From: Longimicrobiales bacterium
GTDB taxonomy: Bacteria; Gemmatimonadota; Gemmatimonadetes; Longimicrobiales; Gaopeijiaceae
NCBI GenBank assembly: GCA_965249725.1
Contig: CBDFMQ010000002.1
Span: 1,952,001-2,016,000, forward strand
Direction: 5' to 3'
DNA length: 64,000 bases
Within the stretch, counting starts at the first letter, position 1. The number at the start of each line of letters is the position of its first letter. Shown here one piece after another: positions 30,001-33,000 of the stretch. Position numbers: made by a program.

Positions 30001-33000
30001 GCTTGAGCTTTCTGTGCTTGCCCAGCAGCGAGCCATTGGGGCCGAAGTAGAGCAACGTGCAGAACAGGGTGCCGCCGCTATACGTGGAATCCCGCTCGAC
30101 GACCCCTACGACCAGGTACACCCCGGCCTCCCGGGCCACCTCTCCCATTCGCTGCGTCGCGGGGCCCGGCACTTCTACCGCTGTATCCCAGTAGCGCTGC
30201 CAGACACGCCGGCCTGCGTCTGTCCGGCCTCCTACGGCGGTCCCGAAGGCCAACCCCCAGGGGTAGCCTCCGACATAGGCCTCGGGAAACACCACCAATC
30301 CCGCTCCGTCTTGCGCCGCTTTGGTGGTGAGTTCGGCAACCCTCTCGGTCGTTGCCTCCCTGTCGAAGAAGACGGGGGACGCTTGCACGACGGCGGCCAT
30401 CACCTTGCGATTCTCAGTCACTTCAGCACCTCTGTCAGCGTTTCTTGTCAGCGGTTTCTGTCAGCGCTGTATGCTCAGCGGTTCCGGTACACGAACTCAG
30501 CCACCACGTCCCCTACCATGAGCAGGGTCTGGGCGCTGGTATTGTCGGGGGTGTCATCGGGTGTGTGCCAAAGGCCGTTCCTCGGCCCGTAATCGAAGTC
30601 GATGATGTCGATCGTGGGGATCCCGACGTCGATGAGCTTCAAGTGATCGTCCACCACTCGGGCCGTCTCGTCGAGGGGGAAGTAGCGTCGATAGCCCAAG
30701 TCCGCAGCGATTCCCCACACCCGCTGGACGAGCTGCGGTGCGGCCTCGAGAGAGTAGGCCTCCACGGGGAACCGGGCGTCGGCGTCACCCACCATGTCGA
30801 GAAGTACGGCCAAGTCGGGGGGATCATCCGTGCCCCGTCCCGCGGCATAGTGCGCGGCGCCCAGGAACATGTCGGCGGTCGTGGGCCCGTAGTCCTCTCC
30901 GTCGCTGAAGAGGAGGTCTACGCCCCCGGGAGGAGCCTGCTCCGCGAACACGCGCGCCAACTCGAGAAGCACCGCGGTGCCGGAGGCACCGTCGTTGGCG
31001 CCAGGCACCGGCATCTCTTGATCCTCGTCGCCCCTGCTCTGGTCGGCCTTCGGGCGCGTGTCCCAATGCGTGAGCAGAAGAAGGCGACGATCGGTCTCCA
31101 TACCGAAGCGGGCGATAACGTTGGTGAGCGTAAGGGTCTCACCGCCGGTGGTGACATGCTCGAACTCGTCGACGAACACCGTGTCCGCGAGGCCTTCGAG
31201 CCGCTCGACCATCCACTTGAGTTGCCTGATGTGGCCCTCCTCCTCGGGCACCCGGGGTCCGAAGGCCACCTGGGCCCTTAGATCGGCAAACGCCCTCGTG
31301 CCGTCGAACGCGGGGCGATCCACGCGAACGCTGACGGTGGATGGTCCACTGTCGTCCGCCCCGCCACACGCCGCGACCGCCAGGAATAGCGCCAATATCA
31401 GGGGCCGTCTCGTCGTCACGTAATCCTCACGGTGGGTCGTTCCGGTTGGCCACGAAATCGGCCCTGTGGCCAGGTCGTGCCCACGCCTCTAGGGGCCTGA
31501 AAACCTCGTTTCCGGTCAGGCCGACAATCTCACGGAAAGGGGGTCAGGGGTCCAGTCTCGACGGGCCTTCAGCGCCGTGCCTCAACCCGGGTCCTCAGGC
31601 AAACATCATACGAGCGTGATAGACATCACCTCCGTGTAGGGAGTTGTACTACATCACCATCGACCAACCCCCTACAGACTCGGTATTCACCCCCGCCGAT
31701 GTTGAGTTCATAGCATTTTCTGCCGGCAGGAAGTCAACCTTGGCGGGCAAAGGCTAGTGGGGGCCGTGGGGTGGACCCAGCAAGGGCGCAGCTTCGACGG
31801 CGTCCGGGCCCGCTTCAATCAGTCGTGGGGCTCAGTGGACCTTATGGGCTATCAGACCATGGACGCGGTGGCCTCGAGCGTTAACGATAATGCCACCTTC
31901 TGGGGTTTTTACGCCGTGATCGACGCCGGCAATGCGGGCAACTTGGACCTTTACACCTTCCACCAAGCCGTGGACGCGGGAGCCGACACCGACCAGACCA
32001 GCTTCGGAGCGCGCTTCGCCGGCAAGACGGGCGGGGTGAGCTACCGAGGTGAGGCCACGATTCAAACCGGTACCCGCTCAACCATCGGCGGCAAGCGCCT
32101 CCACAGCACGCTCACGGATCTTCTGGTTCATCGAATAGAATCCGTTTCGTCGGTTGACCGAGAGATGCTGACCCAGGTCGAGACCTTCGAAGAGGCCCTC
32201 CACATCAGCCGACAGGATCTCTTCGGCCGTCTTGTCCGCGTACATGAGAAACAGTACGGAGATGAGTCCCTTCACGATGTGTGCGTCGCTGTCCGCACGG
32301 AGCTGCAGCTTGCCATCGTCGGAGGTTCCCAACGAAACGAGCCACACCTGGCTCAGGCAGCCGGGCACCACGTGATCCTGGTCCCGGTTCTCCTCCGGAT
32401 ACGGCTCGAGCTTGCGGCCCAGTTGGATGAGGTAGCGATACCGGTCCTCCCATGAGAGGAGCCGATTGAAGCGCTCGACGAATTCGTCCGGTGTCACGTG
32501 CTTGGTATTCCTTTGTCGCGGCTCTTTGTCGCCGACAGGACTCGACCAGTGGGCGGCCATCCATCGGCTAGAACCCCGTGGCCTCGCCGGGGTTTCTTCC
32601 GGATGGGGGCCCGCGTATCCTCCCGAGCGACTCTCGGAGGCGGTGGAACGCCTCTAGGGCTGCTACTGCGAAGCCCTCACGACCCGGAACGGCGACCGGA
32701 GCCCACTATGAGCACTCCACCCCTCGACGTGCTGGAACAAGCGGACGATTGGAGGACCCAGGGCTTGGGTGTGGCCCTGGCGACCGTCGTCCGCACCTGG
32801 GGCTCGGCTCCCCGGCAACCCGGCAGCCAGATGTGCATCAACGAGCTAGGGCACTTCGTGGGCTCGGTTTCGGGCGGATGCGTAGAGGGCGCCGTCGTGC
32901 AGGAAGCTCAGGAGGTCATGGCCCAAGGGGGCACGAAGCTCCTGAAGTACGGCGTGACCGATGAGCAGGCGTGGGAGGTGGGACTCGCATGCGGAGGCGA

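What a model noticed while it worked through the whole genome (the two positions that open the first line are those of the whole stretch)
30475..31419. The Bacteroidetes Q-rule holds in this Gemmatimonadota genome: glutamine after most signal-peptide cuts, with a type II [...]
Over half of predicted signal peptidase I substrates expose Gln at +1, and g02952 is a lipoprotein ortholog of the Tannerella/Porphyromonas type II glutaminyl cyclase, so the secretome is predicted to be pyroglutamate-capped. The cyclase is near-universal in the phylum and mostly lies beside sprA.
Evidence so far: Gln at +1 in 75 of 127 members of secreted families and 195 of 360 genome-wide, site chosen without looking at +1; 2 of 20 in cytoplasmic controls; 2.3% after internal AxA. 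phmmer E 1e-55 to 6QRO. Ortholog in 24 of 25 phylum genomes, within 5 kb of sprA in 15.
(Added by a program. Inside this text positions count along the whole contig: contig position 1,952,001 is position 1 of the stretch shown here. "Call 12" and the like, gene names such as g00115 and contig names such as C1 are that model's own, and its searches are not shown. The text may have been shortened before it was handed on; [...] marks where a part breaks off. The agent that wrote the report below was given it as the finding of a first reader that could run no searches.)

Follow-up and report, generated by a model that had tools for sequence, protein, structure and literature searches.

The report
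Glutamine-capped secreted proteins in Gemmatimonadota
Most exported proteins of this bacterium are predicted to begin with glutamine once their signal peptide is cut, and it encodes the membrane-anchored enzyme that turns such ends into a protective cap, a habit so far described as exclusive to Bacteroidetes.

Summary
The gene (30475-31419, -) is a lipoprotein type II glutaminyl cyclase (QC) ortholog: 6QRO E 9.6e-56, model rmsd 1.3-1.6 A to bacteroidal QCs, QC-type active-site residues present. Gln follows a cleavage-type site in 240-281 of 406-451 predicted signal-peptide proteins, against 4% after internal helices. Blind single-site calls gave only 36-43%, against 0/11 in E. coli. A whole-genome proxy puts class Gemmatimonadetes near Bacteroidota. 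Corrections: the ortholog is in 127 of 151 phylum genomes, not near-universal, and it is not beside sprA in this genome. Added here: 18 of the 24 genomes lacking it carry the unrelated type I QC (18 of 127 otherwise). A sprA-QC linkage recurs in several FCB-related phyla. Two genomes lost QC from its slot yet keep Gln at +1. Limits: Gln at +1 is also common in an Acidobacterium, KSB1, Calditrichota (proxy only for these two) and some Proteobacteria with no QC found, and is lower in the phylum's other classes. The 2018 paper already noted high values outside Bacteroidetes. No proteomics or assay. Verdict: a real, apparently unreported extension of a known system; pyroglutamate capping is inferred.

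The parts
30475..31419 (-). Type II (animal-type, bacteroidal-like) glutaminyl cyclase gene, 314 aa, Peptidase_M28 fold
   Evidence: phmmer 6QRO E 9.6e-56; PF04389; model pLDDT 93, VIA Z 41.5-44.6 and rmsd 1.3-1.6 A to seven bacteroidal QC entries vs Z about 31 to aminopeptidases
31366..31419 (-). Lipoprotein signal peptide, lipobox V-A-A-C18, followed by Gly-Gly
   Evidence: sequence; lipobox found by a crude scan in 77 of 114 orthologs
31424..31428 (-). Ribosome-binding site GAGGA, 4 nt before the GTG start
   Evidence: sequence
30988..30993 (-). Asp143-Gly144 = PgQC Asp149-Gly150 (Zn ligand and the QC-type Asp-Gly bond)
   Evidence: alignment to 6QQL; D 114/114, G 111/114; feature defined in PMC7948796 section 6
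30892..30897 (-). Glu175-Asp176 = PgQC Glu182-Asp183 (catalytic Glu; bacteroidal-type Zn ligand)
   Evidence: E 114/114, D 113/114
30796..30798 (-). Asp208 of the LDMVG motif (taken as the human QC D248 counterpart; that mapping is my inference)
   Evidence: 114/114
30646..30648 (-). Asp258 of the DDH motif (taken as the human QC D305 counterpart; recalled mapping)
   Evidence: 113/114
30565..30570 (-). Trp284-His285 = PgQC Trp298-His299 (QC-type Trp; Zn ligand)
   Evidence: W 105/114, H 112/114
29459..30421 (-). Nitrilase-family gene directly downstream; family-level synteny marker used to show the empty QC slot in G139 and G113
8296..9969 (-). Example predicted substrate: GSDH-family secreted protein, ...AVEA|Q25
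   Evidence: site read by eye
46732..49743 (-). Example predicted substrate: PD40/Omp85-type outer-membrane protein, ...AGGG|Q26
   Evidence: site read by eye
12467..12913 (-). Example predicted substrate: secreted protein with no Pfam family, ...VCLG|Q25
   Evidence: site read by eye

Best explanation
This organism, and class Gemmatimonadetes broadly, runs the same pathway as Bacteroidetes. Sec/SPase I cleavage exposes Gln on most exported proteins (shown by sequence statistics). The lipid-anchored, periplasm-facing single-zinc QC encoded at 30475-31419 cyclises that Gln to pyroglutamate with loss of ammonia (inferred from orthology, active site and fold). The cap protects mature proteins from periplasmic aminopeptidases (inferred from P. 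gingivalis). The type II enzyme is ancestral in the phylum, where it sat in a sprA-QC-comEA-pilBTC operon, and in this family it moved next to the nitrilase gene. Several lineages swapped it for the unrelated type I QC, also a lipoprotein, as happened within Bacteroidetes.
For: Q site in 240-281 of 406-451 signal-peptide-like proteins vs 156/3,533 internal helices; the same pipeline gave E. coli 0/11 at the blind cut and 1/15 in the window. Proxy medians (Q pattern / D+E pattern): class Gemmatimonadetes 1.20 (136 genomes), Bacteroidota 1.41 (8), Gammaproteobacteria 0.57 (5), monoderms 0.35 (6). QC residues are conserved across 114 orthologs. The model is closest to solved bacterial QCs. Type I QC is in 18 of 24 genomes without type II vs 18 of 127 with it, in about 4-5 separate lineages; all 9 type I proteins whose N-termini were printed show a lipobox-like Cys. 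The 44 Gemmatimonadota QCs form one group (SH-aLRT 84, quick tree). QC is essential and stabilises substrates in P. gingivalis (PMC10653852 abstract and section 19).
Against: No activity or mass-spectrometry evidence. Cleavage sites come from my own heuristics, and blind single-site values were only 36-43%. G139 (one contig, 96% complete) and G113 have nrdJ abutting the nitrilase gene, with no QC of either type found, yet keep Q (12/21 and 4/9; sister G137 7/19). Paraburkholderia (5/11) and Qipengyuania (5/8) show Q at the blind cut with no QC found. Several QC-bearing groups have low values: other Gemmatimonadota classes median 0.67 and 8/47; Cloacimonadota 0.39-0.47. The PgPhe294 counterpart is not clearly present.
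Confidence: 0.8

Rival explanations
1. The Gln preference is real but only loosely tied to QC. It is an SPase I preference or an inherited signal-peptide habit, with slow spontaneous cyclisation, and QC merely speeds it up or serves a few substrates.
For: Q is retained after QC loss from its slot (G139, G113); the six genomes with neither enzyme have proxy median 0.93; Q is high in Proteobacteria with no QC found; QC-bearing phyla with low proxies exist.
Against: 145 of 151 genomes keep a QC, and type I fills in for type II in 18 of 24 cases. That points to selection for the activity, although kin are not independent.
Confidence: 0.2
2. The protein is an M28 aminopeptidase or other peptidase, and the Gln bias is unrelated to it.
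For: Pfam gives only Peptidase_M28; PMC5837995 section 18 says animal-type orthologs are compatible with either activity.
Against: It has Asp-Gly, Glu-Asp and Trp-His as in bacterial QCs rather than the aminopeptidase Asp-Asn/Asp and Tyr. Z is 41-45 to QCs vs about 31 to aminopeptidases. It is replaced by a type I QC, which has no peptidase fold.
Confidence: 0.06
3. The enrichment is an artefact of the home-made cleavage heuristic or of high-GC codon use (Ala-rich signals followed by CAG).
For: All site calls are heuristic, and estimates ranged from 26% to 69% by method.
Against: The calls were blind to +1. Q is 2.9% of all residues and follows 2.5% of internal AxA; internal helices give 4.4%; the same pipeline gives E. 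coli 0/11; high-GC Actinomycetota have proxies of 0.25-0.42.
Confidence: 0.03

Closest known systems
Bacteroidetes Q-rule (Bochtler et al. 2018, PMC5837995; Szczesniak et al. 2023, PMC10653852)
   Same: Majority Gln after the predicted SPase I cut; lipoprotein QC; two interchangeable QC lineages (animal type and plant type) within one phylum.
   Different: A different phylum, which the 2018 text and supplements do not mention; the 2023 abstract calls the trait exclusive to Bacteroidetes. Here it is strong in class Gemmatimonadetes and weaker in the other classes. Two genomes appear to have lost QC altogether, whereas it is essential in P. gingivalis. No MS evidence here.
Bacteroidal type II QCs: TfQC 6QRO, PgQC 6QQL/7CJE, BtQC 4FUU/7D1D, PdQC 3TC8
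   Same: Fold (rmsd 1.3-1.6 A over 267-282 residues, 34-37% identity), Zn ligands, Asp-Gly bond, Trp-His, N-terminal lipobox.
   Different: Shorter loop before Trp-His (DFDYGPRNGLWH here; DFDYPYWH is the ortholog consensus), with no clear Phe294 counterpart; no 'Tf insertion' length after Asp176.
Non-Bacteroidetes bacterial type II QCs in the PDB: Fimbriiglobus ruber 7D1B, Acidobacteriales 7D18
   Same: Same family; their entry titles name them glutaminyl cyclases, so the enzyme is already known outside Bacteroidetes.
   Different: More distant (E 1.9e-38 and 5.3e-25). I found no paper in the library linking them to a proteome-wide Gln bias; the paper behind these entries was not found.
Type I (plant-type, beta-propeller) QC, PF05096
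   Same: Same reaction; lipoprotein form in Gemmatimonadota; replaces this gene in several clades.
   Different: Unrelated fold; not found in this genome.

Membership tests
Bacteroidal type II glutaminyl cyclase | M28 alpha/beta fold closest to QCs | tested here: met
Bacteroidal type II glutaminyl cyclase | Zn ligands PgAsp149/Asp183/His299 | tested here: met
   D143/D176/H285; 114, 113 and 112 of 114 orthologs
Bacteroidal type II glutaminyl cyclase | Asp-Gly at Pg149-150 (aminopeptidases have Asp-Asn/Asp) | tested here: met
   D143-G144; G in 111/114
Bacteroidal type II glutaminyl cyclase | PgTrp298 (Tyr in aminopeptidases) | tested here: met
   W284; 105/114
Bacteroidal type II glutaminyl cyclase | PgPhe294 (small aliphatic in aminopeptidases) | tested here: inconclusive
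   loop is shorter; Leu aligns by HMMER, and conserved F275/Y277 lie nearby
Bacteroidal type II glutaminyl cyclase | Lipoprotein anchor | tested here: met
   VAAC18 by sequence; 77/114 orthologs by a crude scan; lipidation itself not shown
Bacteroidal type II glutaminyl cyclase | Gln cyclisation activity, one Zn bound, inner-membrane location | not testable with these tools
   needs assay and fractionation; Gly at +2/+3 in 25/36 orthologs vs 70/180 genome lipoproteins is only a hint
Q-rule | Gln after the SPase I site in most substrates (Q-value above about 0.48) | tested here: met
   53-69% by window count, 36-43% by blind single site, 47/52 by eye; heuristic, not SignalP
Q-rule | Genome encodes a type I or type II QC | tested here: met
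   145 of 151 phylum genomes have one
Q-rule | N-terminal pyroglutamate seen by mass spectrometry | not testable with these tools
   no proteome access; PMC8849296 passages hold no 'pyroglut'
Q-rule | QC essential for growth (as in P. gingivalis) | not testable with these tools
   the empty slot in G139 and G113 argues against universal essentiality
M28 double-zinc aminopeptidase | Asp-Asn/Asp after the bridging Asp, and Tyr before the last His | tested here: not met
   Asp-Gly and Trp instead
Type IX secretion system (for the linked sprA) | PorV and CTD cargo present | tested here: inconclusive
   PF19572 and TIGR04183 not found in own genome; the TIGR04183 control rang nowhere

The most novel reading that the evidence does not exclude
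Pyroglutamate capping of the exported proteome is not a Bacteroidetes peculiarity but an ancient FCB-lineage envelope pathway. Its type II cyclase was co-transcribed with the SprA outer-membrane translocon in the common ancestor: co-oriented within 3 kb in Marinisomatota 12/14, KSB1 3/3, Zixibacteria 2/2, Calditrichota 1/1, Eisenbacteria 1/1, and directly behind sprA in 29/41 Gemmatimonadota genomes. It reached Bacteroidetes-level coverage in Gemmatimonadetes, KSB1 and Calditrichota, with repeated type II-to-type I swaps. Lineages that keep Gln at +1 without either known QC (G139, G113, some Proteobacteria) may use an unrecognised third cyclase.
Probability: 0.35. Interest if true: 0.7.

Novelty: new member of a known kind. 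Interest (0 to 1): 0.5.

Why it matters
A 2023 paper states that this modification occurs exclusively in Bacteroidetes, and explains that by their proteolytic periplasm. An abundant soil, sediment and marine phylum with the same trait undercuts that explanation and bears on how selective bacterial QC inhibitors are. It also offers natural experiments: sister genomes with type II, type I, both or neither enzyme. Practically, secreted proteins of Gemmatimonadota should be searched with Gln-to-pyroGlu N-termini in proteomics, and '|Q' is a strong prior for mature starts. The conserved sprA-QC linkage reopens the QC/T9SS connection that the 2018 paper set aside.

Tried and rejected
An EM-trained cleavage matrix blind to +1 cut too early (Q 26-44%, second peak two residues on); it is reported but not used as the estimate. 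Domain-anchored and beta-barrel-anchored counts gave too few proteins (5/7 and 15 rows). I hoped the six genomes with neither QC would have low Q, which would have shown strict co-evolution; they do not (pooled 22/47 in five of them; proxy median 0.93). A replacement gene in the empty slot was not seen: sprA runs straight to comEA in G071 and in this genome, and nrdJ to the nitrilase gene in G139 and G113. Their other M28 hits are weak to the QC profile (best E 9.5e-8), and their sequences were not examined. Gene calling failed in part for G131 (2 signal peptides). ORF-level control samples for one deltaproteobacterium, Lentisphaera and Reyranella were not obtained, so only proxy values exist for these. 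The SprA profile at E<=1e-10 hit only 48 of 151 genomes and missed this genome's own copy (6.7e-9), so the adjacency denominator is partial. The careful tree did not finish; only the quick tree is quoted. No RNA holder was listed for the locus. T9SS parts PorV and CTD were not found with their profiles. Literature searches: Gemmatimonad + glutaminyl cyclase, 0 papers; pyroglutam + signal peptide + Gemmatimonas, 1 off-topic; QC + signal peptidase + Proteobacteria, 0; Q-rule + pyroglutamate, 11 papers, by title none on Gemmatimonadota; searches added nothing on this.

Full report
THE GENE. Window 30475-31419(-) encodes 314 aa, with a GTG start, a GAGGA site 4 nt upstream and a lipobox VAAC18. 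The closest named relatives are Gemmatimonadota MAGs at 70-72% identity. The best solved relatives are bacterial QCs, led by Tannerella 6QRO at E 9.6e-56. Aligned to PgQC, D143-G144, E175-D176 and W284-H285 match Pg D149-G150, E182-D183 and W298-H299. PMC7948796 section 6 (read) uses D149/D183/H299, the Asp-Gly bond and W298 to tell bacteroidal QCs from aminopeptidases. These residues are conserved in 105-114 of 114 ortholog rows. The Phe294 counterpart is unclear because the loop is shorter. The AlphaFold model (pLDDT 93) fits seven bacteroidal QC entries at Z 41.5-44.6 and rmsd 1.3-1.6 A, the Fimbriiglobus and Acidobacteriales QCs at Z 39.5 and 37.8, and animal QCs and aminopeptidases at Z 31-32. 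Activity is inferred, not shown.

GLN AFTER THE SIGNAL PEPTIDE. No gene caller or SignalP was available, so I wrote both. Blind to +1, Q was called in 162 of 452 proteins, in 131 of 303 with a second scorer, and in 26-44% with an EM matrix that visibly cut early. Without choosing one site, a [small]-x-[A/G]|Q lies in the c-region of 278 of 451 proteins (E 29, D 36). The controls are 156 of 3,533 internal helices, 15 of 180 lipoproteins and 17 of 120 multi-pass proteins. The count is 240/451 if QA and QG are excluded, and 281/406 after dropping 45 rows that look like pilins, Rossmann folds, anchors or lipoproteins, with a slightly wider site rule. By eye, and not blind, 47 of 52 true-looking substrates among the 70 random rows start with Q; I set 18 rows aside as non-substrates. 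The same pipeline gave E. coli K-12 0/11 (eight Ala) and 1/15, and two Bacteroidota 10/22 pooled. The enrichment is therefore real and of Bacteroidetes size. The exact Q-value awaits SignalP.

ACROSS THE PHYLUM. The ortholog is in 127 of 151 genomes (counts include G000 and the unpublished G053 and G093). Full-length type I QC is in 36 of 151: 18 of the 24 that lack type II and 18 of the 127 that have it. The Fisher p of 6e-9 overstates this, since the swaps fall in about 4-5 lineages: g3+g4, G026, g35, g40, and G140, a fragmented assembly. All nine type I N-termini printed, out of ten loci, show a lipobox-like Cys. I used a DNA-pattern proxy: a hydrophobic run plus x-x-Ala, then Gln versus Asp/Glu codons. 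In this genome 74 of 108 Gln hits and 16 of 87 Asp/Glu hits were N-terminal and in frame. Medians were 1.21 for type II only (96 genomes), 1.29 for both (16), 1.10 for type I only (18), 0.93 for neither (6) and 0.67 for the phylum's other classes (15). ORF-level samples agree: type I only 23/49, neither 22/47, G137 7/19, other classes 8/47. All 44 Gemmatimonadota QC rows form one group in a quick tree (SH-aLRT 84), consistent with vertical descent.

RESULTS AGAINST A STRICT COUPLING. In G139 (one contig, 96% complete) and G113, nrdJ abuts the nitrilase gene where the relatives G137 and G112 have QC. No QC of either type was found in them, even with a profile, yet Q persists (12/21 and 4/9). 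This fits recent loss, spontaneous cyclisation or an unknown enzyme. In 50 genomes picked from a 16S scan, proxy medians were 1.41 for Bacteroidota, 0.76 Alphaproteobacteria, 0.58 Beta, 0.57 Gamma and 0.35 monoderms. Samples of Paraburkholderia (5/11) and Qipengyuania (5/8), with no QC found, and of an Acidobacteriaceae genome with a distant type II homolog (13/17), were Q-rich at the blind cut; these samples are small. Among 50 genomes chosen for having this QC, KSB1 (0.95-1.49, 4 genomes), Calditrichota (1.18; 1.07), Kryptonia (1.06) and named Gemmatimonadota (0.69-1.68, 5) were high. Armatimonadota (0.58-0.67), Poribacteria (0.47-0.74), Marinisomatota (median 0.54, 10) and Cloacimonadota (0.39-0.47) were not. 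The trait is thus a continuum, with Gemmatimonadetes near the top, not a two-phylum exclusive. The proxy is sensitive to base composition and is only a ranking.

GENE CONTEXT. Here QC lies between sufE and a nitrilase gene; sprA is about 1.6 Mb away, followed directly by comEA and pilBTC. Elsewhere QC lies directly behind sprA in 29 of 41 phylum genomes with both hits (28 of 40 without unpublished G053). The exceptions are this family, family f10 and one contig-edge case. The deep-branching G009 shows sprA-QC-comEA-pilB-pilT-pilC (pil names are my reading of the translations). Among loci with at least 3 kb upstream, a co-oriented sprA match ends within 3 kb in Marinisomatota 12/14, KSB1 3/3, Zixibacteria 2/2, the Ignavibacteria/Chlorobiaceae/Cytophagia-labelled group 3/5, Calditrichota 1/1, Eisenbacteria 1/1 and unnamed 10/16. 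It does not in Armatimonadota 0/4, Poribacteria 0/4, Bacillota 0/1 or Coatesbacteria 0/1. The linkage looks ancient; whether it is functional or a conserved envelope superoperon is open.

LITERATURE. For PMC5837995 I read the abstract, sections 16, 18 and 21, term searches, and part 1 of 4 of supplement 1, and searched all three supplements by term. It never names Gemmatimonadetes, does not analyse Proteobacteria, and reports high values outside Bacteroidetes (Ignavibacterium 77%, three Chlorobi, a few cyanobacteria). Figure images were not visible. For PMC10653852 I read the abstract, section 19 and passages; it says 'Exclusively in the Bacteroidetes phylum'. For PMC7948796 I read passages and section 6. 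For PMC8849296 I read passages only; there is no pyroglutamate mention. The searches found no report for Gemmatimonadota; subscription papers are largely outside this library. That some proteobacterial porins and cytochromes c start with pyroglutamate is recalled, from no call.

VERDICT. This is a real and apparently unreported extension of the Q-rule to class Gemmatimonadetes, with an orthologous cyclase and good comparative support. The enzyme family is known and already solved outside Bacteroidetes, the original paper hinted at a wider spread, and the modification itself is unproven. New member of a known kind; interest 0.5.

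Noticed in passing
window 31757-32080 (+): Orphan ~108-aa fragment of an alginate-export-family outer-membrane porin (PF13372, E 6e-7, profile positions 115-228 of 395) between sufE and the QC gene; looks like a pseudogene remnant.
   Followed up: partly
window 32078-43192: A block holding sufE, xdhC-like, coxG/coxDE-like and coxLMS-like genes, a ClpB-type AAA-receiver fusion and a rhodanese sits between QC and nrdJ, which are adjacent in relatives G137 and G112; likely a lineage-specific insertion (xdh/cox names are my reading).
   Followed up: partly
window 40811-42277 (-): ClpB-like AAA_2 + D2-small protein fused to a C-terminal response-regulator receiver domain.
   Followed up: no
window 21-4089 (+): PHP-like/AAA_21 ATPase followed by a Schlafen AlbA_2-HATPase gene, near a tRNA-like stretch around 5.75-5.85 kb and an integrase-like fragment; resembles a small defence island.
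   Followed up: no
L384 (G139:C1:1809076-1813023), L385 (G113:C13:18872-22807): QC gene absent from its syntenic slot, no type I QC found, Gln at +1 retained: candidates for a third cyclase or recent loss.
   Followed up: partly
L339-L345 (Paraburkholderia), L353-L358 (Qipengyuania), G161 (Reyranella): Frequent Gln after signal peptides (5/11, 5/8; proxy 1.0 for Reyranella) in Proteobacteria with no QC of either type found.
   Followed up: partly
L331-L338 (Acidobacteriaceae, G187): Gln at the blind cut in 13 of 17 proteins; a type II QC homolog sits directly after tatC. The Q-rule probably holds in Acidobacteriota too.
   Followed up: partly
L027, L033, L034, L062, L043 (KSB1, Calditrichota): Bacteroidetes-level Gln proxy (0.95-1.49) together with sprA-linked QC.
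   Followed up: partly
G000 C3:375015-380981: Full-length SprA homolog (~1,990 aa) between lptF/lptG-like genes and comEA-pilBTC, while PorV and CTD profiles find nothing: SprA may serve something other than a canonical T9SS here.
   Followed up: partly
G000 C1:~527-531k, C2:~57-62k, C3:~2941-2946k: The same stretch occurs three times in the assembly (identical pattern hits); 34 duplicate proteins were removed before the unique-protein counts.
   Followed up: no
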